A stretch of DNA of 64,000 nucleotides from Marinomonas sp. (GTDB taxonomy: Bacteria > Pseudomonadota > Gammaproteobacteria > Pseudomonadales > Marinomonadaceae), in the NCBI GenBank assembly GCA_039940335.1, contig JBDVGW010000008.1; one strand, 5' to 3'. The notes under the pieces are model-generated. The model had not been told where the DNA came from, did no database searches, and worked only from the letters and a program-made list of their open reading frames with translations. Both the position numbers and the translations under genes were made by a program. Positions 3,281-32,025 of this stretch are shown one piece after another. Every line of letters begins with the position of its first letter. Position 1 is the first letter of the stretch.

Positions 3281-3994
3281 CTACTTAAGAGTCCAAGCTA
3301 AGAACGCCTCTTGCTGAGTATCATTGGCTTTTTGTGACCAAAAATTCAGCATTTCTGCGGCAACATCACTTATTTCAACCTTACGTTCTGGGTTAGCACG
3401 CCATAATTGAACCTCTTCTCGGGTCGACAAGCTGGCTTTGTTGTACCAAAATTTCAGCATTTCCAAAGCAATATTATCCAGACGGTCATCAGTAACAGGA
3501 ACAACTTGAGGAGAAACGTCAGACCCTTTCTTACTCACTTGTTCGATCTCTTCTAAATAGTCACGAGTATTTTGTAAGCCAGAACGTGTCGCTAATTGTA
3601 CTTGTGTAAAAGGTATATTTTGATCTAGTTGAGTATCGAGCAATTCAAACTGAGGGGCTTGAGCATATTCTTGCGCTTTTCTTTGAGACGAAACATAGGG
3701 CGCTTGTAACTGGATATTTGAGTCTTGCAGAAAGTTTATATCTAAGACAATAGGTTCTGAGCGGTAGCGATGAGTATCACCACCTTGGCGTAGCAATTTA
3801 TTGAAACGTACGACTAATTGGTGCTGACCAGCCGCAACCTCGACTTTAAAATCATGACCAAATTTATTCGCCGCTTGCTGATCCACATACATGATTTCAA
3901 AGGTACGAGGCACTTCAAATGTCGCAGCAAAGATAGGGCTTGCTGCGACTGAAACCAAACCACCAAATAATGCCAACTTAAACTGGTGTAACAT
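3281..3994 (-). CDS. DUF2057/YccT-family exported protein
   Basis: Signal peptide (…SPIFA-A), 'GQHQLVVRF', 'SEPIVL', C-terminal 'EMLKFWY' motif. Confidence 0.75.
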   Translation of the reverse strand: MLHQFKLALFGGLVSVAASPIFAATFEVPRTFEIMYVDQQAANKFGHDFKVEVAAGQHQLVVRFNKLLRQGGDTHRYRSEPIVLDINFLQDSNIQLQAPYVSSQRKAQEYAQAPQFELLDTQLDQNIPFTQVQLATRSGLQNTRDYLEEIEQVSKKGSDVSPQVVPVTDDRLDNIALEMLKFWYNKASLSTREEVQLWRANPERKVEISDVAAEMLNFWSQKANDTQQEAFLAWTLK

Positions 3995-4129
3995 ACTATT
4001 CCTTTTAAATAAGCTACTAGTAAAGTGGCAAACTTATCATGAAAAATAGTATTTTTTGGCTTTCTTCTCCGTTAAAAAAAGGAATATGGAATTAATTCAT
4101 ACTCGATGCACATTTCATAAAATTAATGA

Positions 4130-5290
4130 CTAGTCTCGATCTGTTTTACGGACATCTGAATCCACTACAACTTGATTACGACCTCTTTCCTTGGCAATGT
4201 ACATACACAAATCAGCTCGCTTCAACAACTCAACTACATTATCGCCTGCCTTTTTCTCAGCGATACCTGCACTAACTGTAATATGAAAAGGTGTATTTTT
4301 TGGTCCATAGAAAGTGTGCTCAGCAATAGCTATCCGGACTTTTTCAGCGATTTCAAAACTTTCTTGCTCAGAGGCTCTCAATAGTGTCACTATCTCTTCA
4401 CCACCATAACGAAAAACATTTTTATGGGGTAATAAAGCACTTTTGATAATCATGCTTGCTTCTGAGAGCACTGAGTCCCCGTATTTATGGCCGAGCTGAT
4501 CATTGATCGACTTAAATTTGTCCAAATCAAAAAACACGATCGAAAAAGGTGTCTTAGCTGCCTTATCAAACATCTTAGGCGCGACATCATTTAGGTGCCC
4601 ACGGGAATATAAAAGGGTTAATGAGTCATGAATGGCTTTATGACGAAACTCTTTTAAATACCTCTTGGATAAACGTAGCGACAACAAAATACTCAACACG
4701 AATAAAACAAAAATTGTTACGAAGCCTAATGAAAACTGTTCCATAATATCTTTATTTAAATCATCCACATAAAGCCCTGACACAAACACCAGTTGCCAAG
4801 GTTTAAATAATTCCACATAGCCTATTTTAGCTACTGGCTGGCTGTCACCGGGCTTAGGCCATTCATAATGAACAAAGCCACCACCTTGATCAGCAGTATT
4901 TAGCATGTCACGAATAAAGAATCGCCCTTCACTGTCCTGCACATCGATTAGGGACTTAGTGGAAAGATTAGCTAAATTCGGGTGTGCAAGCATGACGCCT
5001 TGCCTATCTAATATCCAAAAATAGCCATTCCCTTGAAATGTCATTGAACCAATGTATTTGAACAACTCTTGCTCAGATTCTGCTGAAGAAGCTCCACTAG
5101 TTAAAGATTTCTGAAAAATTGTATTAGCGAGTCCCAATGCAGACTCAACTTGAGAATGAATTAAATTTTTGCGCTCTTCTACCACCGCAGAATGGATGTG
5201 CCAGACGATAACAGTCAACAAAATCACCATGTTGATAACACTCACTAGTGACAGTGTAATAATATGATTTCGATATTTAGGCTGACGCAT
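4130..5290 (-). CDS. Cache (sCache_2)-domain diguanylate cyclase
   Basis: Two TM segments flank 'YFWILD..MLAHP..YEWPKP'; 'DSLT', 'DLDKFKSINDQLGH', 'RYGGEEI'. Confidence 0.88.
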   Translation of the reverse strand: MRQPKYRNHIITLSLVSVINMVILLTVIVWHIHSAVVEERKNLIHSQVESALGLANTIFQKSLTSGASSAESEQELFKYIGSMTFQGNGYFWILDRQGVMLAHPNLANLSTKSLIDVQDSEGRFFIRDMLNTADQGGGFVHYEWPKPGDSQPVAKIGYVELFKPWQLVFVSGLYVDDLNKDIMEQFSLGFVTIFVLFVLSILLSLRLSKRYLKEFRHKAIHDSLTLLYSRGHLNDVAPKMFDKAAKTPFSIVFFDLDKFKSINDQLGHKYGDSVLSEASMIIKSALLPHKNVFRYGGEEIVTLLRASEQESFEIAEKVRIAIAEHTFYGPKNTPFHITVSAGIAEKKAGDNVVELLKRADLCMYIAKERGRNQVVVDSDVRKTDRD

Positions 5291-8993: not shown

Positions 8994-11171
8994 TTAGCGC
9001 TGCAGAGCTTGCTTAACAATCACTCGGTGAGCATGTAATAAAGGTTCTGTGTAGCCATTTGGTTGGCTCACTCCTTTAAAGATCAAATCATGAGCGGCCT
9101 TAAATGCTTGGCTTTTTTGCCCATCGCTGATTAATGGCTGGTAGCCCTTAAGGTGACAATTCTGTTCATCCACCACTTTTGCCATACGTTCCAACGTTGA
9201 CTCCACTAAAGCGGCAGAACAAATGCTGTGATGCAACCAATTGGCAATGTGCTGGCTAGATATTCTTAGGGTTGCGCGATCTTCCATCAGCCCAACATGA
9301 TTAATGTCAGGTACTTTCGAACAGCCCACGCCCTCTTCTACCCAGCGCACCACATAGCCTAATAATCCCTGAACGTTATTATCGATTTCTTTTTGTATTA
9401 CTCTTTCTGACAACGTCAGGTTTTCTGGAATAAGTGGTAGCGTTAGTAAGTCATCAAACTTAGCTTTAGGACGTTGCTTAATACGCTCTTGCTCGGCAAA
9501 TACATCCACTTGGTGATAATGCAAAGCGTGCAAAGTGGCTGCTGTTGGGGAGGGTACCCAAGCGGTATTCGCTCCAGCTTTTGGGTGAGCTTTTTTGGCT
9601 GTCATCATAGCGGCCATTTCGTCTGGCATGGCCCACATGCCCTTACCAATTTGTGCTTTACCCTGTAAACCACACTGCAAGCCAATATCCACATTGCGAT
9701 TTTCGTATGCCTGTATCCAAGGTTGATTCTTAATTTGATCTTTTGGTAAAAAGGCTCCCGCCTGCATTCCCGTGTGAATTTCATCCCCCGTTCTGTCCAA
9801 GAAGCCTGTGTTAATGAACACCACTCGCTCTTTAGCCGCGCGTATACATTCTTTTAAATTCAACGTCGTGCGGCGCTCTTCATCCATGATGCCGATTTTC
9901 AGAGTATTCGGTGCTAGCCCCAGCATTTGTTCCACACGTGAAAACAGCTGACAGCTAAACGCTACTTCTTCTGGGCCATGCATTTTGGGTTTTACGATAT
10001 AAATGCTGCCCGTACGGCTATTGCGAATACCGTTGTCTTTCTTCAAATCCAGTGCCGCGATCAGTGCAGTAATGGCCGCATCAATGATGCCTTCCGGAGC
10101 AAAACGCCCTTGAGCGTCCTGCATTAAGTCCGACTCCATTAGGTGACCTACATTACGAACCAAGAGCAATGAGCGGCCATGTAGGCGATACTCCTGCCCG
10201 TCAAGATCCGTAAAAAGGCGATCTTTGTTTAGACGACGAGTATGGGTTTTACCGTCTTTTTCAAAGCTCGTTTGCAGGTTTCCCTGCATGAGCCCTAGCC
10301 AATTTCGGTACACTTCTACCTTGTCTTCAGCATCGACTGCGGCAATAGAGTCTTCGCAATCCATAATGGTGCTTAAGGCAGATTCGAGCAGAATGTCATT
10401 CACATTGGCTTTATCTTGGGCACCATTCTTACCGTTCGGATCCAGCTGAATTTCTACATGCAAGCCATTGTTTTTCAATAAAATAGATTCCGGAGCACTG
10501 CGCTGACCATTCACTGCCACCAACTGACAAGGCTGCTGCAAACCCGCTTTCGAACCATCGGCAAAGAAAGCCAATAGGTGGTGGTAATACACCACGTAAC
10601 TGGTCACATCCTGATGGGAGCCATTATCAAGTGGAAAAATTTCGTCCAAGAAAGCTTTGGCCTGCTGAACCACCATTTGTTCACGAGCAGCGTGATCAGC
10701 GGTGTTCGCACTTTCCACTAATTTAGGCGCCACTGCATCTGTGCCATAAAAAGCATCGTACAAGCTTCCCCAACGGGCATTGGCAGCGTTTAAAGCAAAA
10801 CGAGCATTCTTTAAAGGCACCACTAATTGAGGTCCGGCTAGGGTGGCAATTTCTGCATCCACATGCTCGGTGGTGATGGCAAAATCTTCCCCCTCTGGTA
10901 CTAGGTAACCAATTTCGCGTAAAAACTCTTGGTAGCTGGGTTGGTCGATAGGTTGCTCAGGATGGCATAAATGCCATTCATCAATCTGCGCTTGCAGGGA
11001 TTGGCGAGTCACCAAAAGCTGACGATTAATCGGCGCTAAGTCCGCCACTAGCTGCTGCAAATCCTGCCAAAATTTATCGGCATTTAAGTCATGTAGAGGC
11101 AATACTTCTTCATTGATGAAGTGGTAGAACCCTTGGTCTATTAGGTTATTTTTATGTAAGGGCATATTCAT
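8994..11171 (-). CDS. glcB: Malate synthase G
   Basis: 'NARFALNAANARWGSLYDA', 'NTGFLDRTGDEIH', 'MEDRATLRISSQ'; start moved to ATG 11171, which has an AGGA RBS. Confidence 0.96.
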   Translation of the reverse strand: MNMPLHKNNLIDQGFYHFINEEVLPLHDLNADKFWQDLQQLVADLAPINRQLLVTRQSLQAQIDEWHLCHPEQPIDQPSYQEFLREIGYLVPEGEDFAITTEHVDAEIATLAGPQLVVPLKNARFALNAANARWGSLYDAFYGTDAVAPKLVESANTADHAAREQMVVQQAKAFLDEIFPLDNGSHQDVTSYVVYYHHLLAFFADGSKAGLQQPCQLVAVNGQRSAPESILLKNNGLHVEIQLDPNGKNGAQDKANVNDILLESALSTIMDCEDSIAAVDAEDKVEVYRNWLGLMQGNLQTSFEKDGKTHTRRLNKDRLFTDLDGQEYRLHGRSLLLVRNVGHLMESDLMQDAQGRFAPEGIIDAAITALIAALDLKKDNGIRNSRTGSIYIVKPKMHGPEEVAFSCQLFSRVEQMLGLAPNTLKIGIMDEERRTTLNLKECIRAAKERVVFINTGFLDRTGDEIHTGMQAGAFLPKDQIKNQPWIQAYENRNVDIGLQCGLQGKAQIGKGMWAMPDEMAAMMTAKKAHPKAGANTAWVPSPTAATLHALHYHQVDVFAEQERIKQRPKAKFDDLLTLPLIPENLTLSERVIQKEIDNNVQGLLGYVVRWVEEGVGCSKVPDINHVGLMEDRATLRISSQHIANWLHHSICSAALVESTLERMAKVVDEQNCHLKGYQPLISDGQKSQAFKAAHDLIFKGVSQPNGYTEPLLHAHRVIVKQALQR

Positions 11172-11260
11172 CGCATAGATCCTTTTCAAACATTGATACG
11201 GTCAAAGCAAAATTAAAAGCACTCTGTGTTGCTTGATTTTTAGTCTATGACAAACTAGAT

Positions 11261-11300
11261 TGAAATTTCACAATAAGAATTACACAGTGTAAATTTTACA
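11261..11300. promoter_or_regulatory. Cluster of palindromes in the glcB/regulator divergent region (candidate operators)
   Basis: tgaaatttca (11261-11270), ttacac-a-gtgtaa (11280-11292), tgtaaa-t-tttaca (11288-11300). Confidence 0.5.
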
Positions 11301-11303
11301 AAA

Positions 11304-12827
11304 ATGAAAAATAAAAATAGTTTAATTCGCAAAGCCCATTTCCTTGGCACCAAGATACGCAACCTGCGTAAACGCAACCATTTGACCATGGAAGACCTGT
11401 CCGCTCGCTGCATCAAAGTCGACCCAGAATGCGCCCCTTCAGTGTCATACTTATCCATGATAGAGAGGGGAAAGCGTGTCCCCAGTGAAGAGGTATTAGA
11501 AGTGATTGCCAGTGTCTTTCAAAAAGACCTCGACTGGTTTTTAGACGATATTCCAGAAGAGGAGGCCATCAAGCCATCGAAAGGTTCTGGAGGGGGTATC
11601 AACGGCATGGCGCTAGAACCCAATTTTCTGTTTTCTAACGACATATTACAAATCGCCATTCCTGAAATGCTGTCTCAAACTGGCACCAGTGGCCGTCAAT
11701 TTGCCCACCTTTTGATTCGTGCACACCAAGAACATCATCAAAACCATTTCCCGGATTTAGAAAGAGCCGCCGAGGATGTTGGGCAAAAGCGTTTGCCGCT
11801 AAGTTTGGAAGAAATCATTGCCTTAACTCAACACCATGGCTTAACCATCAAGTGGTTTCGTAAAACGCCACAAAGCATACGTGACAGCATGGGAATTGAT
11901 GATTCACAGGTTGTCACATCCTTTTTTGAGCCCCCCAACAGCCTTTACATCAACCAAATAATGAAGTCTCAGCCTGTGCGATTAAAGTACAACTTAGCGG
12001 TACATATCGGTCACTGTGTCCTACATGACAAGGACACAATGCGTAATGTATTGGTGACAGGTCGTGATGAAATATCGCCCTTACAAGAGCAAAATTTGTT
12101 ACCTCAAGGTACAGGTATGGACGCCCAAGATGTGTTGCGGGCGTGGCGAGATTTTGAGTGTAGCTTCTTTGCAGGCGCCCTACTTTGCCCAAAAGTGCCC
12201 TTTCGACAAATGCTTGATCGTAACGGCTATGAGATCAACACTGCGAAACTGGCAGGGGTATCAGCTTCAGTCGCCATGCGCCGTATGACCGCAGTATCAC
12301 CCTACCCCCATTGGCATTACTTTGATGCTTACGCTCCGGGCAAGCTCAAGGCGGTGTACCGTGGCAACGGTATTCCGTTGCCTTGGGGGAATATGCGCAT
12401 GGTGGAAGACCCTTGCCAGCACTGGGCTGTCTTTCGAATGATTAATGCTCCCCTTACTGGCACATCGTCGCAAATTTCGATTTTGAATGTTGGTGACGAA
12501 CCAAGAATTTACGCATGTGAATCCATCAAGGTGGCAGATTTAGCCGACAACAGCCATGTTTTGTGCTCTGGCATTGATCTTAACCCGGCCATTGAAGCCC
12601 AAGGCAAAAGCGCACAAGAGATTGCTCAGCAATTAAAACAGGCCTGTGTTGGGAACGGTGGCTCAGCCCCCATCCCAAAAGCCATAAAGAAAGACCTTAT
12701 GAGTGTGGCAAAGATTCTCAACATTAATTGGGTGGAAAGAGGAATAGAAAACGATGCTAGAACCATATGCTCTCGTGGAGCGGTTTGTCCACGTACACCG
12801 AGTTGCTATCGCCCCTGCTATCCCTAA
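11304..12827 (+). CDS. XRE-HTH + IrrE-like domain regulator, RamB/ScfR-like (DUF3612-type)
   Basis: N-terminal XRE HTH 'LGTKIRNLRKRNHLT…SYLSMIERGKRVPS'; 'ECSFFAGALLCP'; divergent from glcB-aceA. Confidence 0.8.
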   Translation: MKNKNSLIRKAHFLGTKIRNLRKRNHLTMEDLSARCIKVDPECAPSVSYLSMIERGKRVPSEEVLEVIASVFQKDLDWFLDDIPEEEAIKPSKGSGGGINGMALEPNFLFSNDILQIAIPEMLSQTGTSGRQFAHLLIRAHQEHHQNHFPDLERAAEDVGQKRLPLSLEEIIALTQHHGLTIKWFRKTPQSIRDSMGIDDSQVVTSFFEPPNSLYINQIMKSQPVRLKYNLAVHIGHCVLHDKDTMRNVLVTGRDEISPLQEQNLLPQGTGMDAQDVLRAWRDFECSFFAGALLCPKVPFRQMLDRNGYEINTAKLAGVSASVAMRRMTAVSPYPHWHYFDAYAPGKLKAVYRGNGIPLPWGNMRMVEDPCQHWAVFRMINAPLTGTSSQISILNVGDEPRIYACESIKVADLADNSHVLCSGIDLNPAIEAQGKSAQEIAQQLKQACVGNGGSAPIPKAIKKDLMSVAKILNINWVERGIENDARTICSRGAVCPRTPSCYRPCYP

Positions 12828-12853
12828 GGGGCAAGGGCGAAGCTCTGAAGCGG

Positions 12854-12973
12854 TTAAGGAACTAAGTGATGACCGCCATGATTACGGTGTCCGTGAGGCC
12901 CTGCACAGGCGGTCACCCTGACCAAAATGCTCGCCATAAGAACAGCGCCAAGAATGCGTTTAGCTCGTTTCAT
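12854..12973 (-). CDS. Putative 39-aa His-rich lipoprotein precursor (below the ORF-track cut-off)
   Basis: GGAGG 6 nt before ATG; MKRAKRILGAVLMASILVRVTA-CAGPHGHRNHGGHHLVP*; basic N-terminus, hydrophobic core, VTAC lipobox. Confidence 0.6.
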   Translation of the reverse strand: MKRAKRILGAVLMASILVRVTACAGPHGHRNHGGHHLVP

Positions 12974-13060
12974 AAAACACCTCCAATAAAGGTATTATGA
13001 TAAAAAATACGCCTTCCTAGCGCAAAGCAGCTTACCTAGTTTTACACTTAGTGAAATTGC

Positions 13061-13651
13061 TTATTCACGAAAAGTAAAAAGTAAAATGTCTTTCATTTTA
13101 CGCTCTACTTCGACGTCGGCGCTGTCAAAATCTGCTTTACTTAATTGCGGCAAGAATGGCTGCACAGCACGAAGTTTTTTAATGGCTTGAGGGTCAGCCG
13201 TCATCACAATGGCGGCATAATTAAAGGCGTCGTAATAGGCAAAGGCTTGCTCTTCAAGGGCTTGTAAATAGGACTCTAACGTTTCTTCACCAAAGACTTG
13301 TTTGATCGCGGTTACTGCACCATACACAGCCACACCTTCGCTTAGCACATTACTTTTAGGGGTATCAAAGCCCATAGGATACAAGCCACGTACCATTTCT
13401 TGAATAACGTCCGCTAGCAACATAACATCATTGGAAAAACTGCGCGCGGGGATCTGTAAGCGGTAGTGATAGGGTTGTTCTTTACTGGTAAACACGACCT
13501 CTGGCTTGGCGATATCTTGATTGACTTCAAAACCACCAAACTCTGCTTGTGGCGCAGGCTCACCGAACAAAAAAGTCACCGCAGGTAACCAAGCTTCGCG
13601 CAGCTTTTCAAGTTTTGCTATCTGTATTGCTTGCAGATCAGACACAGGCAT
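13061..13651 (-). CDS. Hypothetical protein with degenerate zincin-like motifs
   Basis: AAGGA RBS; 'LADVIQEMVRGLYP…NVLSEGVAVY'. Confidence 0.7.
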   Translation of the reverse strand: MPVSDLQAIQIAKLEKLREAWLPAVTFLFGEPAPQAEFGGFEVNQDIAKPEVVFTSKEQPYHYRLQIPARSFSNDVMLLADVIQEMVRGLYPMGFDTPKSNVLSEGVAVYGAVTAIKQVFGEETLESYLQALEEQAFAYYDAFNYAAIVMTADPQAIKKLRAVQPFLPQLSKADFDSADVEVERKMKDILLFTFRE

Positions 13652-26209: not shown

Positions 26210-27163
26210 ATGACAGACCAAAGTAACCTCGCCCTAAGCCCTATCGAGACACTCACAAGTGCCATCGAGACACCCACAAGTGCCACTGACAAGCCGACCA
26301 AAAGTGCTTTAACCGTGCTTTCGCCTTCTCAGTGGCAAGCCTTTTTAACCCTAGGCATTAGCAAAACATCCCGTGGTAGTGTTCTGAAAACTTGTGACCA
26401 CAAGGGCCCTTTATACGTACAAAAAGCCTTTTATCCAGAAGGCAAAGACACCGCCCACATTTATTTATTACACCCACCGGGCGGCTTAGTGTCCGGAGAT
26501 GAGCTCACCATTACGGCAAATCTTGGCTCTGATACTCATGCACTCATCACTACCCCTGGCGCGGGTCGTGTTTACCGTGCCCGAGAAGATAAAACGCTAC
26601 AACACCAGATCACCTGTTTGAACGTCGAGCAAAACGCCATTATGGAATGGCTACCACAAGAAACCATCCTGTACCCTAATGCTCACACCCGCTTAGAAAA
26701 CCGCATTAACCTTGCTGAAGGTGCCAAATTTATTGGTTGGGAAATCACCTGTTTTGGGCTACCCGCCAACCAATTAGATTTTGCCCAAGGCCAAGCTGAG
26801 CAAGGCTTTGAAGTACGCCAGCAAGGTCAATTAAAAGTACGAGAGCGGCTCATCATAGATCAATCCAAACCTTCGATCTTAAACGCTAAAGCGGGCATGA
26901 ATGGTTTACCTATCAATGGACTAATGGTGGCAGGACCTTTTAATGAGCCCGCCTCTTTGGAGCCATTAATCGACGCCTTGCGTGAACTTTGCCAAGACCA
27001 TAATGCCCTATGCGGCGTTACCTTGGTGGAAGAGTATTTACTGGTACGTAGCTTGCACAATGATTCGGAACAGATGAAACAAGTGTTTAGCCAGTGTTGG
27101 CGCTTAATACGCCCACAACTTATTGATAAACAGGCTTGCGAACCCAGAATTTGGGCCACCTAG
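26210..27163 (+). CDS. ureD: Urease accessory protein
   Basis: 'HKGPLYVQKAFYPEG', 'LHPPGGLVSGD', 'TTPGA', C-terminal 'PRIWAT'. Confidence 0.93.
   Translation: MTDQSNLALSPIETLTSAIETPTSATDKPTKSALTVLSPSQWQAFLTLGISKTSRGSVLKTCDHKGPLYVQKAFYPEGKDTAHIYLLHPPGGLVSGDELTITANLGSDTHALITTPGAGRVYRAREDKTLQHQITCLNVEQNAIMEWLPQETILYPNAHTRLENRINLAEGAKFIGWEITCFGLPANQLDFAQGQAEQGFEVRQQGQLKVRERLIIDQSKPSILNAKAGMNGLPINGLMVAGPFNEPASLEPLIDALRELCQDHNALCGVTLVEEYLLVRSLHNDSEQMKQVFSQCWRLIRPQLIDKQACEPRIWAT
26243..26284 (+). repeat. 21-bp tandem duplication in the ureD 5' extension
   Basis: atcgagacactcacaagtgcc / atcgagacacccacaagtgcc (IETLTSA-IETPTSA). Confidence 0.8.
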
Positions 27164-27224
27164 ATAACACCTTAGGTCCTCCAGAATTATCGCCAAAATT
27201 AAGAGAAGTAAAAGGGTACATACT

Positions 27225-27527
27225 ATGGAATTGCTGCCAAGAGAAAAAGATAAACTACTGGTCTTCACGGCTGCCCTACTTGCCGAACGTCGCCTTAACC
27301 GCGGCTTGAAACTTAACTACCCAGAAGCTATGGCGTACATCACCATGGAAATTATAGAAGGCGCACGAGACGGTAAAACCGTTGCAGAGTTAATGAGCTA
27401 TGGCAAAACCTTACTCAGCGCTGAGCAAGTCATGGATGGTGTCGCAGATCTCATCCATGAAGTTCAAGTAGAAGCTACCTTCCCTGACGGAACTAAGCTT
27501 GTCACCGTCCACCATCCTATTAACTGA
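27225..27527 (+). CDS. ureA: Urease gamma subunit
   Basis: '[11 protein letters not shown]…LNYPEA…[14 protein letters not shown]'. Confidence 0.98.
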
Positions 27528-27543
27528 GCCCAAGGAGGCATCC

Positions 27544-27873
27544 ATGACCCCAGGTGAAATTCAGGTTGCTGAGGGCGTTATTGAGTTAAATGTCGGCCGC
27601 GAAACGCGACGCATCAGAGTCGAAAACACAGGGGACCGGCCGGTACAAATAGGTTCCCATTACCACTTTTATGAAGTCAATCCGGCTTTATCTTTTGACC
27701 GTGAATTGAGCAAAGGTTTTCGTTTAAACATTGCCTCAGGGACAGCAGTACGTTTTGAGCCCGGCCAAGGTCGTGAAGTAGAACTGGTCGAATACGCAGG
27801 CAGTAAAACCATCTATGGTTTCCGTGGCGAGATCATGGGCAAACTCGATGCTAAAACAGGAGACGATCAATGA
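27544..27873 (+). CDS. ureB: Urease beta subunit
   Basis: 'MTPGEI…[17 protein letters not shown]'; start ATG 27544 with GGAGG RBS. Confidence 0.97.
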
Positions 27874-29600
27874 GCGAATCCAACAAACCCAACACAGCCC
27901 AAATGGATCGTCAAAGTTATGCACAAATGTTTGGTCCTACCACAGGTGACAGAGTGCGTCTTGGCGATACCGACCTGTGGATTCAGGTGGAGAAAGACTT
28001 CACTACCTACGGGGACGAAGTAAAGTTTGGCGGCGGTAAAGTGATTCGTGATGGCATGGGACAAAGCCAAGTGACTAACGCTATTGCCGTAGACCTAGTC
28101 ATCACCAACGCGCTTGTACTGGACCACTGGGGCATCGTCAAAGGTGATGTGGGTGTCAAAGATGGCCGTATTTTTAAAGTTGGTAAAGCCGGTAACCCAG
28201 ATGTTCAAGACAATGTGGATATTATTATTGGCCCTGGCACAGAAGTGATTGCTGGTGAAGGTTCGATTCTGACCGCTGGCGGCATCGACGCTCACATTCA
28301 CTTTATTTGCCCACAACAAATTGAAGAAGCCCTCACCTCTGGGGTCACCACCATGATAGGCGGTGGTACTGGCCCAGCAACAGGCACCAATGCTACTACC
28401 TGTACTTCTGGCCCTTGGTATCTGGGTAAAATGATGCAAGCGACTGATAGTATGCCCATGAACCTAGGCTTTCTAGGAAAAGGTAATGCCAGCTTGCCCG
28501 AAGCGTTAGAAGAACAGCTTGAAGCCGGTGCATTTGGTCTGAAACTTCACGAAGATTGGGGCACTACGCCCGCCTCGATTGATTGTTGCCTAAGTGTGGC
28601 AGAAAAATACGATGTGCAGGTGGCCATTCATACCGACACTCTAAACGAATCGGGTTTTGTAGACAGCACACTGGATGCCTTCAAAGATAGGGTAATACAT
28701 ACTTACCACACAGAAGGTGCTGGCGGTGGCCATGCGCCAGACATTATTCAGGCTTGCTCTAATCCTAATGTCTTGCCCTCTTCCACCAACCCGACTCGTC
28801 CTTACACCCACAACACGGTGGATGAACATCTAGACATGCTGATGGTCTGTCACCATTTGGACAGTAATATCCCTGAAGATGTGGCCTTTGCTGATTCTCG
28901 TATTCGTAAAGAAACCATTGCCGCGGAAGACATTCTTCATGACCGTGGTGCATTCAGTATGATTTCTTCCGACTCCCAAGCCATGGGCCGTGTAGGGGAA
29001 GTGGTGACGCGGACTTGGCAAACCGCCCACAAGATGAAGCAGCAGTTTGGCCTGTTAGCAGAAGACCAAGAGCTGGGAGCAGATAACTTCCGTGCTCGTC
29101 GTTACATTGCCAAATACACCATTAACCCAGCCATTGCCCACGGCGTAAGCCATGAGATTGGCTCGATTGAACCGGGTAAATTAGCGGATCTGGTATTATG
29201 GAAACCCGCGTTTTTCGCGGTCAAACCTTCCATGATCATCAAGGGTGGCATGATTGCCAGTGCGCCTATGGGTGACCCAAACGCCTCGATCCCAACGCCG
29301 CAACCTGTGCATTATCGCCCTATGTTTGGCGCTTTTGGCAAAGCGGCCGCCGCCACCTCACTAACTTTTGTTTGTGAAGCGGCATTACACAACGGCTTGA
29401 AAGAGAAACTTGGCCTAGAGCGCACATTAGTAGCCTGTAAAAACACCCGTAACATTTCTAAATTAGATATGGTTCACAACAACTGGTTACCAAATATTAG
29501 CGTCGACCCACAAACCTACGAGGTGCGTGCCGATGGCGAATTGCTCACTTGTGAACCCGCCAAAACCTTACCGTTGGCTCAGCTTTACACTTTATTTTAG
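27870..29600 (+). CDS. ureC: Urease alpha subunit
   Basis: Ni-site motifs 'IDAHIH', 'LKLHEDWG', 'HTDTLNE', 'HTEGAGGGH', 'MVCHHL', 'SSDSQAMG'. Confidence 0.98.
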
Positions 29601-29611
29601 GACGACATATT

Positions 29612-30058
29612 ATGTTAGATATTTACCAGCGCTTGGGCTGTCATTGCCACGAGCCTGTTTACACCAAGGTTGTACTTAGCCATGAACAAAGAGAACGCGG
29701 CCGCTTAAAGTTGGTAGGCACCAATAACGAAGAAGTGCGAGTGTTTCTAGAGCGTGGCAAGCCTCTATTGGTGGGCGAATACCTAAAATCTGAATGCGGC
29801 AAAATAGTCCAAGTGGAAGGAGCGGTGGAAAGTGTCGCCCACGCCAGCTGCGATGATTGGGAAAACTTTTCTAAAGCCTGCTATCACTTAGGCAACCGCC
29901 ATACCAAGATTCAAATTGGTGAGCGCTGGCTGCGCATCAAACCCGACCATGTGCTTGAAGAAATGCTGCATCTGTTAGGTTTGGTGATCAGCCACGAAGA
30001 AGCCGTTTTTATTCCCGAGTCAGGAGCTTATAGCCATGGTCATCACAGCCACGGATAG
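29612..30058 (+). CDS. ureE: Urease nickel chaperone
   Basis: 'YHLGNRH', 'DHVLEEML', His-rich tail 'HGHHSHG'. Confidence 0.95.
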   Translation: MLDIYQRLGCHCHEPVYTKVVLSHEQRERGRLKLVGTNNEEVRVFLERGKPLLVGEYLKSECGKIVQVEGAVESVAHASCDDWENFSKACYHLGNRHTKIQIGERWLRIKPDHVLEEMLHLLGLVISHEEAVFIPESGAYSHGHHSHG

Positions 30059-30713
30059 CAACCTGTTACGACTATTACAGCTTAGTAGTGTCAGCTTACC
30101 TGTGGGGGGCTATGCCTTTTCCCAGGGTATGGAATATGCCATTGATCGAGGCTGGGTAAAAAAACAGCAAGAGGTAGAAGATTGGATTAGCGTTCAATTG
30201 CATCAATCCCTTGCACGAATGGACTTGCCCATTTTGAGGTTGTGCCTAGAAGCTTGCCGAAGCCAATCCAGTGAGCGCCTAGAGGAACTTAACCAGCTGG
30301 TGTTGGCCTGTCGGGAAACGAAAGAACTGCGGTTGAACGACACAGCTATGGGCGAAGCCCTATCTCGGCTCATGCAGAGTTTGGAGATACCTTCGCCCTT
30401 CACCCGCAGCCAAGATGTCAGCTTTGTCTGCCTGTTCGCACTGGTTTGCCACCATTGGCAAATTCCATTTGAGTTGGCAGCACTGGGCTTTACTTGGTCT
30501 TGGTTAGAAAATCAGGTGGCTGCCGCCACCAAACTGGTGCCTCTGGGACAAACCCAAGCACAGCAGTTATTGGGCACGTTACAACTTGATATTAATGAGG
30601 CGATCCGTCTGTCGAAAAGTATCACAGAAGACAGAGTCGGCGCTGGTTTGCCCAGCATTGCTATTGCCAGCTCATTACATGAAACACAATATTCACGACT
30701 GTTTCGTTCTTAA
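30036..30713 (+). CDS. ureF: Urease accessory protein
   Basis: '[13 protein letters not shown]', 'LVPLGQT', '[11 protein letters not shown]'. Confidence 0.95.
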
Positions 30714-30754
30714 CGGGTCGCGACGAATCTTCTATTTTGTATAAGGAATACACC

Positions 30755-31402
30755 ATGAGTAAACCAAAACAAACTTTACGCGTTGGCGTTGGCGGCCCAG
30801 TTGGGTCAGGAAAAACCGCACTGTTGCGCTCATTGTGCTCAGCGTTACGTGATTATTATAATATCGCCGTGGTGACCAACGATATTTACACGCAAGAAGA
30901 CGCAAAATTCTTAACCGCCCACCAAGCACTGGATGAAGACCGTATTCTGGGTGTCGAGACGGGAGGCTGTCCCCATACCGCGATTCGTGAAGACGCCTCC
31001 ATGAACCTAGCGGCTATTGACCAACTCTTGGCTCGTCATGGTGAACTGGATGTAGTGTTTGTGGAAAGTGGTGGTGATAACCTCAGCGCAACCTTTAGTC
31101 CAGAACTGTCTGATCTAACGATTTATGTGATCGACGTGTCAGCAGGGGACAAGATTCCACGCAAAGGAGGGCCGGGTATTACTAAGTCCGATCTATTGAT
31201 TATCAACAAGACAGACCTAGCTCCTTTGGTTGGAGCGTCCTTAGACGTTATGGACCGTGATGCGAAAATGATGCGCGGCGATCGCCCTTTTGTTTTTTCC
31301 AACCTGAAAAAAGCCGAAGGCTTGGACCAAATCATTCAATTTATCATCCGTGAAGGTATGTTAGAATCCAAAGCTATTCCAGCCGCAAGAGCGGTGGTTT
31401 AA
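30755..31402 (+). CDS. ureG: Urease accessory GTPase
   Basis: GPVGSGKT, 'ETGGCPH', 'ESGGDNL', 'NKTD'; start ATG 30755. Confidence 0.97.
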
Positions 31403-31440
31403 ATAAGTACGTTTTTTTATTTATTTTTAGGAGATTTCAC

Positions 31441-32025
31441 ATGCGTCTACATACGCTAAAACTAAGCCTTGTGGCTTTCATTACCGCCCTACCCGCTCTT
31501 GTATTTGCTCACGCTGGTCATGAACACACGTCCAGCTTTATGACAGGTTTCTTGCACCCAATGGGTGGCTTTGATCACCTATTGGCGATGTTTGCTGTCG
31601 GCCTTTGGGCTGCAACCCTAGGAGGGCGTGCTGTATTGACTGTGCCTATGGCTTTCGTTGCAACCATGTTGATTGGTGGTGGCCTAGCGGTTGCAGGCAT
31701 GGCCGTGCCTTTCATTGAGCAAGGTATCTTGTTGTCTGTGATTGTGATGGGTGCTTTGTTGGTAGGTGCTGCACGCTTCCCTGCGATTATCTGCGCGGCC
31801 ATTGCAGGTGTCTTTGCCCTGTTCCACGGTGCCGCTCACGGCCTAGAAATGCCTTTAAATGCTAACGGTATGGAATATGCAGCTGGCTTCGCACTCGCTA
31901 CGATTGCGCTACACCTTGTTGGCCTAGGCTTTGGACAAGTGTTTACCCGCCTACAAACACCAATGATTTCTCGTCTAGTCGGTAGCATCATTGCCATTGC
32001 TGGCGTGGTTATGTCTTTCGCATAA
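31441..32025 (+). CDS. ureJ: HupE/UreJ nickel transporter
   Basis: 'AHAGH', 'GFLHPMGGFDHLLAM', 'FHGAAHG'. Confidence 0.92.
   Translation: MRLHTLKLSLVAFITALPALVFAHAGHEHTSSFMTGFLHPMGGFDHLLAMFAVGLWAATLGGRAVLTVPMAFVATMLIGGGLAVAGMAVPFIEQGILLSVIVMGALLVGAARFPAIICAAIAGVFALFHGAAHGLEMPLNANGMEYAAGFALATIALHLVGLGFGQVFTRLQTPMISRLVGSIIAIAGVVMSFA

What the first reader, a model, noticed from the sequence alone, without database searches (positions are those of the whole stretch)
12854..12973. Missed 39-codon ORF: a signal peptide plus a 17-residue His-rich lipopeptide
Seen: GGAGG 6 nt before ATG and the product MKRAKR-ILGAVLMASILV-RVTA-CAGPHGHRNHGGHHLVP. It has a basic N-terminus, a hydrophobic core and a VTAC lipobox. 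After signal peptidase II cleavage only 17 residues would remain, 5 of them His. Inference: a membrane-anchored metal-binding peptide (Ni, Cu or Zn), plausible about 14 kb from a Ni-urease cluster, or an entericidin-sized lipoprotein. Caveat: an Arg (AGG) interrupts the end of the hydrophobic core and is one base from Gly (GGG), so it may be decaying.
Basis: partly seen in the sequence, partly recalled or inferred. Interest (0 to 1): 0.65.

Follow-up and report, generated by a model that had tools for sequence, protein, structure and literature searches.

The report
Tiny His/Gly-rich lipoprotein gene, Marinomonas family
The 39-codon reading frame is a real gene belonging to an unnamed family of very small lipid-anchored, glycine- and histidine-rich peptides found only in the marine genus Marinomonas, but this genome's copy has a mutation next to its lipid-attachment site and its function is still unknown.

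Summary
On the minus strand, GGAGG (12984-12980) lies 6 nt before the ATG, and the 39-codon ORF (12973-12854) gives the stated product.

The pattern alone is not beyond chance. This is the only such ORF in the 3.39-Mb genome, against a mean of 1.5 in random genomes. Comparison with relatives settles it:
- 24 of 64 Marinomonas species genomes carry 39-52-codon ORFs (a few of about 90 codons) with the same plan: signal peptide, [G/S/T][V/L][T/S/V]A-C lipobox, and a Gly/His/Pro-rich tail of 17-31 residues.
- Most of the 20 inspected have their own SD, promoter-like boxes and intrinsic terminator.
- Among syntenic members pN/pS is 0.09-0.29, with pS like the flanking genes (p down to 2e-11).
- A profile built without the window picks this ORF as the top hit of 98,284 frames (E 4e-5).
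- A sister lineage (about 84% DNA identity) has the ORF at the same site, with an identical mature peptide and Gly where the window has Arg at -4.

The window's copy is the only one of 21 that fails the classical lipobox pattern.

There is no Pfam, NCBIfam, PDB or literature match. Metal binding is plausible but untested, and nothing links the gene to the urease cluster.

The parts
12854..12973 (-). 39-codon ORF including the TAA stop: prolipoprotein-like mini-gene
   Evidence: Family membership rests on a leave-out HMM (E 4.2e-5, top of 98,284 frames). A syntenic ortholog P0001 is 37/39 identical.
12980..12984 (-). Shine-Dalgarno GGAGG, 6 nt before the ATG
   Evidence: It is identical in the sister lineage. 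Most of the other family members show an SD-like purine-rich motif just upstream of the start codon.
12908..12973 (-). Signal peptide, residues 1-22: n-region MKRAKR, h-region ILGAVLMASILV, then R-V-T-A before the Cys
   Evidence: The two amino-acid differences from the sister ortholog (M13/V13 at 12937, R19/G19 at 12919) both fall here.
12917..12919 (-). AGG, Arg19 at position -4 of the lipobox: a derived substitution (GGG Gly in the sister lineage)
   Evidence: All 20 other members have G, S or T here, and only the window copy fails the PS00013-type pattern. None of 51 lipoprotein-like long ORFs of this genome has K or R at -4.
12905..12907 (-). TGT, Cys23: the predicted lipidated +1 cysteine
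   Evidence: The Ala(-1)-Cys(+1) pair is the only invariant pair of columns in the 21-member alignment.
12857..12907 (-). Predicted mature 17-residue peptide CAGPHGHRNHGGHHLVP (5 His, 4 Gly, 2 Pro)
   Evidence: It is 17/17 identical to the sister ortholog despite 2 synonymous changes, at 12902 and 12865.
12997..13025 (-). Weak promoter-like pair read by eye: TTGCGC (13025-13020), 17 nt, TATCAT (13002-12997). Inference only.
   Evidence: Sequence. The consensus scan did not flag it. Relatives carry TTTGTA and TTATTA-like boxes at about -60 and -38 from the ATG.
13001..13024 (-). Terminator-like hairpin plus T-run ending the upstream 196-aa gene, 28 nt before the SD region
   Evidence: stem 13024-13008, then TTTTTTATCA. 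This makes the mini-gene depend on its own promoter or on read-through.
12805..12843 (.). G+C-rich hairpin without a U-run, downstream of the ORF and overlapping the stop of the convergent DUF3612 regulator gene. It is not a canonical terminator.
   Evidence: Fold, sequence. Most of the other 19 family members inspected instead have a canonical hairpin plus T-run right after the stop.
12797..13139 (.). Patch that is 97% identical to the sister lineage (10 mismatches in 343 nt) against about 83% for the surrounding 8 kb. It contains the whole mini-gene cassette.
   Evidence: Binomial p is 1.4e-16 at 17% background divergence.

Best explanation
The ORF is a real, independently transcribed mini-gene. 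It is one member of a family restricted, as far as searched, to the genus Marinomonas.

Predicted pathway. Each member encodes a 39-52-residue prolipoprotein.
1. The Sec system exports it.
2. Lgt is expected to add diacylglycerol to the invariant Cys.
3. LspA is expected to remove the signal peptide, and Lnt to acylate the new N-terminus.
4. No member has Asp at +2, so by the E. coli rule Lol would carry it to the outer membrane.

What remains is a 17-31-residue, disordered, Gly/His/Pro-rich lipopeptide on the periplasmic face of a membrane. Its most likely activity is weak, reversible binding of divalent transition metals (Cu, Ni or Zn) through His imidazoles and neighbouring Gly amides.

This genome's copy. 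It sits at a lineage-specific site. A roughly 230-nt cassette replaces a PRS-like gene between the DUF3612 regulator gene and a 196-aa gene. The copy carries a derived Gly-to-Arg change at -4 of the lipobox, which probably weakens lipid modification and processing.

Shown:
- the ORF and its SD;
- the family and its invariant Ala-Cys;
- purifying selection on the peptide in syntenic members;
- the sister ortholog and the direction of the G-to-R change.

Inferred: export, lipidation, sorting, disorder, metal binding and the effect of Arg19.
For: - Family. Six-frame profile searches find short open frames with the same plan in 24 of 64 genus genomes. Named database members are all Marinomonas 'hypothetical protein', with one 'Lipoprotein'.
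- Independent membership test. An HMM of 19 members, built without the window and its sister, hits this ORF as the top of 98,284 frames (E 4.2e-5; the next hit is at 0.3).
- Coding constraint. Syntenic small ORFs have pS 0.19-0.73, like their flanking genes. pN/pS is 0.09-0.29, with Fisher p from 2e-11 to 6e-5.
- Gene architecture. Most of the 20 inspected members have an SD, conserved promoter-like boxes and a hairpin plus T-run just after the stop.
- Lipobox. 20 of 21 members pass the classical pattern, and Ala-Cys is invariant.
- Sister ortholog. It lies at the same site on 7 public contigs. It has Gly at -4 and an identical mature peptide, with synonymous changes inside it.
- Composition of mature peptides: 34% Gly, 16% His, 12% Pro.
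Against: - No expression, processing or metal-binding data exist.
- The pattern alone is expected by chance about 1.5 times per genome.
- His content falls to 1 in some members (G010, G045). Metal binding may therefore not be the shared function.
- None of the neighbouring genes scanned against Pfam, at any of the three loci, is a metal homeostasis gene.
- The window copy fails the classical lipobox pattern, lacks the canonical terminator and lacks the C-terminal H-[R/K] common in the family.
- The window-versus-sister comparison alone is not significant: 3 synonymous and 2 non-synonymous changes, p 0.11.
- 40 of 64 genus genomes lack the family, so it is dispensable.
Confidence: 0.55

Rival explanations
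1. This is a real family member, but this genome's allele is non-functional or on its way to loss. Arg at -4 blocks Lgt/LspA processing. The relocated copy has no terminator of its own.
For: - It is the only one of 21 members that fails the lipobox pattern.
- None of 51 lipoprotein-like long ORFs of this genome has K or R at -4.
- Arg is derived: the sister has GGG, and the rest of the family has G, S or T.
- There is no hairpin plus T-run after the stop, unlike most of the other members inspected.
- The family is absent from 40 of 64 genus genomes, so loss is common.
Against: - The ORF, SD and start codon are intact.
- The mature peptide is 17/17 identical to the sister's, with only synonymous changes inside it.
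- Position -4 lies outside the core L-[A/S]-[G/A]-C box, and the 12-residue h-region ILGAVLMASILV is intact.
- The missing terminator is shared with the Gly allele of the sister, so it is not specific to this copy.
- AGG could be an assembly error. Reads could not be checked.
Confidence: 0.25
2. The family's lipopeptides do not act through metals. They are small partners or modulators of an envelope protein or of the membrane itself, as LptM, Lpp, OsmB and entericidins are. The His residues would be incidental or would act as pH-sensitive charges.
For: - His count varies from 1 to 7.
- The most constant features are not the His count. Most members start the mature peptide with C-V-[F/M/L]-[M/L/I]-P. 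All have a Gly-rich linker. Most end in H-[R/K] or R-H.
- In 12 genomes a 333-aa multi-pass membrane protein of unknown family lies about 90 nt downstream on the same strand.
- No metal genes are nearby.
Against: - The window genome keeps the mini-gene but lacks the 333-aa gene, so that protein is not an obligate partner.
- The window and sister peptides lack the C-V-F-M-P start and are the most His-dense relative to length.
- No partner can be named.
Confidence: 0.3
3. What is conserved at 13139-12797 is an RNA or DNA element, such as an sRNA, a 3'-UTR element or a protein-binding region. On this reading the ORF is incidental at this locus.
For: - Synonymous sites of the ORF are far less diverged from the sister than those of the flanking genes: pS 0.10 against 0.48-0.66, p 3e-7.
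- The 87-nt upstream spacer has 1 mismatch (p 2e-6).
- Conservation extends 78 nt into the 196-aa gene.
- The 271-nt transcript folds better than shuffles, z -3.35.
Against: - No Rfam family matches at E up to 1 apart from a spurious miRNA hit.
- Syntenic family members elsewhere show normal pS, so the family carries no nucleotide-level constraint.
- A recent recombination tract that carried the cassette between lineages explains the sharp-edged patch more simply.
- The peptide's similarity to 19 independent relatives cannot come from an RNA element.
Confidence: 0.1
4. It is a chance ORF in a non-coding spacer, not a gene.
For: - Random genomes of this size give 0-4 such ORFs, mean 1.5.
- None of the 24 nearest species representatives has similar DNA at the site.
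- There is no expression evidence.
Against: - Leave-out profile E 4.2e-5.
- 57% identity to the G047 member.
- The frame, start, SD and stop are conserved in a lineage whose flanking genes have pS above 0.48.
- Family-wide purifying selection.
Confidence: 0.04
5. It is the precursor of a lipidated RiPP (DAG-RiPP): a lipoprotein signal peptide fused to a core that a dedicated enzyme modifies.
For: Small precursors with lipoprotein signal peptides that are diacylglyceryl-modified have been described. Some RiPPs of related classes bind metals (PMC13056109).
Against: - Those systems need an adjacent MNIO (DUF692)-type enzyme, and their cores carry the modified Cys.
- No such gene lies next to the mini-gene at any of the three loci.
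- The mature peptides have no Cys other than the lipobox Cys.
Confidence: 0.02

Closest known systems
Entericidins EcnA/EcnB of Enterobacteria (Pfam Entericidin family)
   Same: The size class is the same (41-48-residue precursors). Both are monocistronic-style mini-genes with a lipoprotein signal peptide and a mature part of about 20-27 residues.
   Different: There is no sequence match: Pfam gave no hit at E up to 10. As I recall, entericidin mature peptides are amphipathic helices that form a toxin/antidote pair. These peptides are Gly/His/Pro-rich, predicted disordered, and single-copy.
LptM (YifL), the small lipoprotein that assists maturation of the LPS translocon (NCBIfam NF047847)
   Same: It is a tiny lipoprotein in which only the lipobox and the first residues after the Cys are conserved, followed by a Pro/Gly-rich disordered tail.
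   Different: The best match of any member is E 0.16, at 12 bits against a cut-off of 27.7. The window ORF is not among the matches at E up to 1 in its own genome. That genome has a separate LptM candidate at G000:C9:7186-7266, at 31 bits.
Small His-rich metal-binding proteins without a lipid anchor (SmbP of Nitrosomonas europaea, Hpn of Helicobacter pylori; the His-rich tails of UreE, HypB and SlyD) and the copper-binding octarepeat region of the mammalian prion protein
   Same: Short His- and Gly-rich, largely unstructured segments. In those proteins they bind Cu, Ni or Zn through imidazoles and backbone amides (from my own knowledge, not tested here).
   Different: None of them is a lipoprotein, and there is no detectable homology: no Pfam, NCBIfam or PDB hits. 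Here the segment would be tethered to a membrane by an N-terminal triacyl-Cys.
DAG-RiPPs (lipidated macrocyclic peptides made through the lipoprotein pathway, PMC13056109)
   Same: A short precursor with a lipoprotein signal peptide, giving a membrane-tethered peptide product.
   Different: There is no adjacent modifying enzyme and no core Cys.

Membership tests
Bacterial lipoproteins (Lgt/LspA substrates; classical PROSITE PS00013-type rule, pattern quoted from memory) | Lys or Arg within the first 7 residues | tested here: met
   MKRAKR
Bacterial lipoproteins (Lgt/LspA substrates; classical PROSITE PS00013-type rule, pattern quoted from memory) | Uncharged hydrophobic h-region before the lipobox | tested here: met
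   ILGAVLMASILV, 12 residues
Bacterial lipoproteins (Lgt/LspA substrates; classical PROSITE PS00013-type rule, pattern quoted from memory) | Core lipobox [LVI][ASTVI][GAS]-C, with the Cys between positions 15 and 35 | tested here: met
   V-T-A-C, Cys23. VTAC is the commonest lipobox among the relatives.
Bacterial lipoproteins (Lgt/LspA substrates; classical PROSITE PS00013-type rule, pattern quoted from memory) | Position -4 drawn from [LIVMFWSTAG], and no D, E, R or K in the six residues before it | tested here: not met
   Arg19 at -4, so the window copy fails. The sister ortholog and all 19 other members pass.
Bacterial lipoproteins (Lgt/LspA substrates; classical PROSITE PS00013-type rule, pattern quoted from memory) | Diacylglyceryl modification and globomycin-sensitive cleavage | not testable with these tools
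   This needs labelling and inhibitor experiments. SignalP and LipoP were not available either.
Unnamed Marinomonas Gly/His-rich mini-lipoprotein family (defined here) | Significant match to a profile built without the candidate | tested here: met
   E 4.2e-5 at 25.8 bits, rank 1 of 98,284 frames; the next hit is at E 0.3
Unnamed Marinomonas Gly/His-rich mini-lipoprotein family (defined here) | 39-52 codons, invariant Ala-Cys, Gly/His/Pro-rich mature part of 17-31 residues | tested here: met
   39 codons. The mature part is 17 residues with 5 His, 4 Gly and 2 Pro.
Unnamed Marinomonas Gly/His-rich mini-lipoprotein family (defined here) | Own SD and promoter-like boxes | tested here: inconclusive
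   The SD is a perfect GGAGG. The promoter-like pair TTGCGC-17-TATCAT is weak, was not flagged by the scan, and is only loosely alignable to relatives.
Unnamed Marinomonas Gly/His-rich mini-lipoprotein family (defined here) | Canonical intrinsic terminator directly after the stop, and a C-terminal H-[R/K] or R-H | tested here: not met
   The peptide ends in LVP, and the downstream hairpin has no U-run. The sister lineage shares both departures.
Entericidin (Pfam) | Match to the family profile | tested here: not met
   No Pfam family at E up to 10 for the window peptide or up to 0.01
LptM (NCBIfam NF047847) | Score over 27.7 bits against the signal-plus-mature-start profile | tested here: not met
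   Not among the matches at E up to 1 in its own genome. Another locus scores 31 bits. hmmscan of the peptide gave no LptM hit.
DAG-RiPP precursors | Adjacent MNIO/DUF692-type modifying enzyme and a modifiable core Cys | tested here: not met
   The neighbours are an amidase, DUF2848, a 196-aa protein of unknown family, a DUF3612 regulator, an RluF-like protein, LEA_2, phytase-like and DUF2057 proteins. The mature peptides have no second Cys.

The most novel reading that the evidence does not exclude
The Marinomonas mini-genes may be one branch of an overlooked, recurrently evolved class of 'natural lipid-anchored His-tags'. These would be 17-30-residue Gly/His lipopeptides, tethered in the periplasm, that buffer or hand over Cu, Ni or Zn at the membrane surface. 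They would be carried on self-contained cassettes of about 230 bp (promoter, SD, ORF). Such cassettes would relocate within a chromosome and pass between species by short recombination tracts, as the 97%-identical patch at 13139-12797 suggests.
Probability: 0.2. Interest if true: 0.6.

Novelty: new variant of a known kind. Interest (0 to 1): 0.42.

Why it matters
Proteins under 50 residues are often left unannotated and are rarely studied. This family is well supported: it is genus-wide and under purifying selection. Its mature product is little more than a lipid anchor carrying about 20 Gly/His/Pro residues. No domain database, solved structure or paper covers it.

If the peptides bind metals, they would be the simplest membrane-tethered metal buffers known. 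They could be tested directly with synthetic peptides.

The window and its sister lineage also provide a natural Gly/Arg pair at lipobox position -4. That pair is a ready-made test of how tolerant Lgt and LspA are at this position.

If the function turns out to be ordinary or dispensable, the finding is still a useful annotation correction for Marinomonas genomes.

Tried and rejected
- DNA search of 40 relatives with the 321-nt region: own genome only.
- Synteny from the 196-aa gene side: relatives have a 404-aa PRS-like gene there, and no small ORF.
- Sensitive blastn and tblastn of the 233-nt spacer against relatives' spacers and the PRS-like protein: nothing, so the ORF is not a scrambled remnant of that gene.
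It worked after the alignment was re-ordered.
- Pfam, NCBIfam, PDB profile search and Rfam: no meaningful hit.
- Order-wide profile search of 401 genomes: outside the genus, only weak hits to signal peptides of long proteins.
- Phage collection (tblastn) and a JGI metagenome pattern scan for both alleles: no match.
- Literature: two full-text searches found no description of the family.
- The family's two usual slots in this genome (after the RluF-like gene on C12; before the DUF2057 gene at window 3281-3994): both empty.
No read or RNA evidence could be obtained, and read laying was not used.
- My first parse of the loci assumed they were oriented on the match strand, which was wrong. It was redone with the correct strands.

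Full report
**1. The observation**

The finding's coordinates lie on the minus strand. Read as the reverse complement, the sequence is ...TTTATTGGAGGTGTTTTATGAAACGAGCT....
- GGAGG is at 12984-12980.
- A 6-nt spacer follows, then ATG at 12973-12971.
- There are 39 codons, ending in TAA at 12856-12854.

Cys23 is TGT at 12907-12905, and Arg19 is AGG at 12919-12917. The 17 residues from the Cys onward hold 5 His, 4 Gly and 2 Pro.

ureD, ureA, ureB, ureC, ureE, ureF, ureG and a HupE/UreJ gene lie at 26210-32025, behind a probable urea ABC transporter.

**2. Is it more than chance?**

By pattern alone, no. I used a relaxed rule:
- GGAG or GAGG 3-14 nt upstream;
- 30-60 codons;
- K or R in the N-terminus;
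- an uncharged hydrophobic run of at least 9 residues;
- a relaxed lipobox, with any residue allowed at -4.

This ORF is the only hit in all six frames of the 3.39-Mb genome. Eight order-2 Markov genomes of the same size gave 0-4 hits, mean 1.5. The case therefore has to rest on comparison with other genomes.

**3. Local context**

The ORF lies in a 233-nt spacer (12828-13060).
- Downstream is the convergent DUF3612/HTH regulator gene (11304-12827, plus strand), which is divergent from the malate synthase G gene.
- Upstream is a 196-aa gene with no Pfam family (13651-13061, minus strand).
- That gene ends in a terminator-like hairpin plus T-run (13024-13001) just before the ORF's SD.

In 11 of 24 same-genus species representatives, the 196-aa gene is followed instead by a convergent 404-aa phosphoribosyl-pyrophosphate-synthetase-like gene. 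In the seven of these loci that I read in full, that gene lies between the 196-aa gene and the regulator. This genome has lost the gene; only a 26%-identical paralog exists elsewhere. The 233-nt spacer has no detectable similarity to the relatives' spacers or to the lost gene. The ORF therefore sits at a lineage-specific replacement.

**4. Relatives of the peptide**

A six-frame search of the 64 species genomes of the genus with the peptide found short open frames with 45-59% identity at other loci. Profile searches raised this to 24 of 64 genomes. The sequences share one plan:
- M-K/Q/R-x-x-K/N...;
- a hydrophobic core;
- [G/S/T]-[V/L]-[T/S/V]-A-C;
- then 17-31 residues that are 34% Gly, 16% His and 12% Pro, usually ending in H-R, H-K or R-H.

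Ala(-1)-Cys(+1) is the only invariant pair of columns.

Named database members are all from Marinomonas: M. arenicola, M. posidonica, M. ushuaiensis, M. vulgaris, M. rhizomae and several unnamed strains. They are labelled 'hypothetical protein', with one UniRef 'Lipoprotein'.

Outside the genus, a search of 401 genomes of the order gave only weak hits, mostly to N-termini of long proteins.

Pfam, NCBIfam, a PDB profile search and two literature searches found nothing.

**5. Is the window ORF truly a member?**

I built an HMM from 19 members, leaving out the window and its sister. I searched it against all 98,284 stop-to-stop frames of at least 20 residues in the window's own genome. It ranked this ORF first, at E 4.2e-5. 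The runner-up was at E 0.3.

**6. Is the family coding?**

Fourteen members lie downstream of an RluF-like pseudouridine synthase gene. In 12 genomes a 333-aa membrane protein gene of unknown family lies downstream of the mini-gene. A second group lies between a phytase-like gene and a DUF2057 gene.

In syntenic pairs, the mini-ORF has synonymous divergence like its flanking genes (pS 0.19-0.73) but much lower non-synonymous divergence. pN/pS is 0.09-0.29, with Fisher p of 2e-11, 6e-10, 5e-7 and 6e-5 in four pairs.

Length differences between members are in-frame, and nearly all members end in TAA. Most of the 20 inspected have:
- an SD;
- shared promoter-like boxes (TTTGTA at about -60 and TTATTA-like at about -38);
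- in many, an A[C/T]TAAGGAT motif at about -95;
- a canonical hairpin plus T-run immediately after the stop.

These are stand-alone monocistronic mini-genes under purifying selection on the peptide.

**7. The sister lineage and the Arg**

An exhaustive HMMER search of 1.84 billion representative proteins gave one hit. It is a 39-residue protein with two differences: MKRAKRILGAVLVASILVGVTACAGPHGHRNHGGHHLVP.

It is encoded on 7 public contigs, in the same position between the 196-aa gene and the DUF3612 regulator gene. Gene finders called it there. Those contigs are only about 83-84% identical to the window over 8 kb, so they come from a different species-level lineage.

The five nucleotide differences in the ORF are:

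| Position | Window | Sister | Effect |
|---|---|---|---|
| 12937 | ATG | GTG | Met13 / Val |
| 12929 | AGC | AGT | Ser15, synonymous |
| 12919 | AGG | GGG | Arg19 / Gly |
| 12902 | GCA | GCT | Ala24, synonymous |
| 12865 | TTA | CTA | Leu37, synonymous |

Both amino-acid changes fall in the signal peptide, and the mature peptide is identical. All 20 other members have G, S or T at -4, so Arg is the derived state.

The window allele is the only one of 21 that fails the classical lipobox pattern (I quote the pattern from memory). None of 51 lipoprotein-like long ORFs in this genome has K or R at -4. The core box V-T-A-C and the 12-residue hydrophobic core are intact, so impairment is likely but not certain. 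An assembly error at 12919 cannot be excluded, because reads could not be examined.

**8. An unexpected feature: a hyper-conserved patch**

Between the window and the sister, flanking genes have pS 0.48-0.66. Yet 13139-12797 has only 10 mismatches in 343 nt (97% identity; binomial p 1.4e-16). This includes 1 mismatch in the 87-nt spacer upstream of the ORF and pS of 0.10 inside the ORF.

Peptide-level selection cannot explain conserved synonymous and non-coding sites. Syntenic family members elsewhere show no such effect.

The simplest reading is a recent recombination tract that carried the 'cassette replaces PRS-like gene' allele from one lineage into the other. Its breakpoints would lie about 78 nt inside the 196-aa gene and about 30 nt inside the regulator gene.

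An RNA-level element is the rival. The transcript folds better than shuffles (z -3.35), but Rfam finds nothing and no covariation test is possible.

One consequence follows. The window-versus-sister comparison alone carries little weight for coding (3 synonymous against 2 non-synonymous changes, p 0.11). The weight comes from the wider family.

**9. Origin of this copy**

The peptide is closest to the members that sit in the phytase-like/DUF2057 slot (57% and 49% identity). In this window the DUF2057 gene is present at 3281-3994, only 9 kb away. Its slot is empty, and the phytase-like gene is missing. The RluF slot, on contig C12, is also empty. A local relocation of the cassette is plausible but is an inference.

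**10. Mechanism**

- Shown: the features in sections 1 and 4-7.
- Inferred from established knowledge of the lipoprotein pathway: Sec export, Lgt, LspA and Lnt processing, and Lol sorting to the outer membrane. No member has Asp at +2; the residue there is V, A or G.
- Inferred from composition only: disorder, and binding of Cu, Ni or Zn by His imidazoles with neighbouring Gly amides. Such binding is seen in unrelated His/Gly-rich segments, such as the copper-binding octarepeat region of the mammalian prion protein and SmbP, Hpn and the UreE tails.
- Against a universal metal role: His counts fall to 1 in some members, and none of the neighbours scanned against Pfam, at any of the three loci, is a metal gene.

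Nothing but distance links the gene to the urease cluster, and family members in other species sit at unrelated loci. I put the metal-binding step at roughly one in three. I put 'real mini-lipoprotein gene family' at about nine in ten.

**11. Comparison with known systems**

- Entericidins are alike in size and type, but there is no profile match.
- LptM is alike in being a tiny lipoprotein with a disordered tail, but the match fails, and the genome has its own LptM candidate on contig C9.
- DAG-RiPPs (PMC13056109) need an adjacent modifying enzyme and a core Cys. Both are absent.
- Two earlier notes of this scan describe tiny His-rich lipoprotein mini-genes in unrelated bacteria and in a Klebsiella prophage. 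I could not compare sequences. A tblastn of one member against the phage collection found nothing. These notes suggest a recurrent class, not homology.

**12. Verdict**

This is a previously undescribed, genus-restricted family within a known kind, the small bacterial lipoproteins. This copy carries a probably deleterious signal-peptide mutation. Interest is moderate.

Noticed in passing
window 12797-13139: This patch is 97% identical to a sister lineage whose flanking genes are about 80-85% identical (pS 0.48-0.66). It covers the last 26 codons of the 196-aa gene, the spacer, the mini-ORF and the regulator's stop region. It is probably a recent inter-lineage recombination tract that carried the cassette.
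   Followed up: partly
window ~11050-11450: A second high-identity patch (94-97%) against the same sister lineage. It spans the divergent promoter region between the DUF3612 regulator gene and the malate synthase G gene, plus both N-termini. It could be regulatory constraint or another recombination tract.
   Followed up: no
window 12828-13060 versus L064-L070: A 404-aa PRS-like (phosphoribosyltransferase-type) gene follows the 196-aa gene in 11 of 24 Marinomonas relatives. In the seven loci read in full it lies between the regulator and the 196-aa gene. It is absent from this genome, which has only a 26%-identical paralog on contig C9.
   Followed up: partly
L077, L084, L079, L083, L086, L080, L089, L082, L095, L073 (about 95 nt upstream of each mini-ORF): A conserved A[C/T]TAAGGAT motif, plus TTTGTA and TTATTA-like boxes, is shared by family members at different chromosomal loci. 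This suggests a common promoter or operator that travels with the gene. The window has only a loose ACTAAGT at -79.
   Followed up: partly
L087 (G015), L094 (G004), L092 (G055): Lipoproteins of about 85-90 residues (open frames of 92-94 codons) occupy the phytase-like/DUF2057 slot. They carry two copies of a GGDHRGGGP motif and look like expanded, two-repeat versions of the mini-lipoprotein.
   Followed up: no
window 12946-13024, minus strand: In the predicted RNA fold, the upstream terminator arm (13024-13010) pairs with codons 5-10 of the ORF, and the SD pairs with an upstream ACCUUU (z -3.35). This could be an alternative structure coupling termination and translation. There is no sequence variation with which to test it.
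   Followed up: no
G000:C9:7186-7266 (outside the window): A 48-codon open frame scores 31 bits against the LptM profile, above the cut-off. It is a separate small lipoprotein gene, and my SD-based scan of short ORFs did not pick it up.
   Followed up: no
L062/L063 (G005:C1:259479-260994): The DUF3612 regulator ortholog in one relative is interrupted by an in-frame TGA and matched in two pieces. It is a possible pseudogene.
   Followed up: no
window 3281-5290: The family's usual slot upstream of the DUF2057 gene is empty here. A GGDEF-domain gene (4130-5290) abuts it in place of the phytase-like gene seen in relatives.
   Followed up: partly
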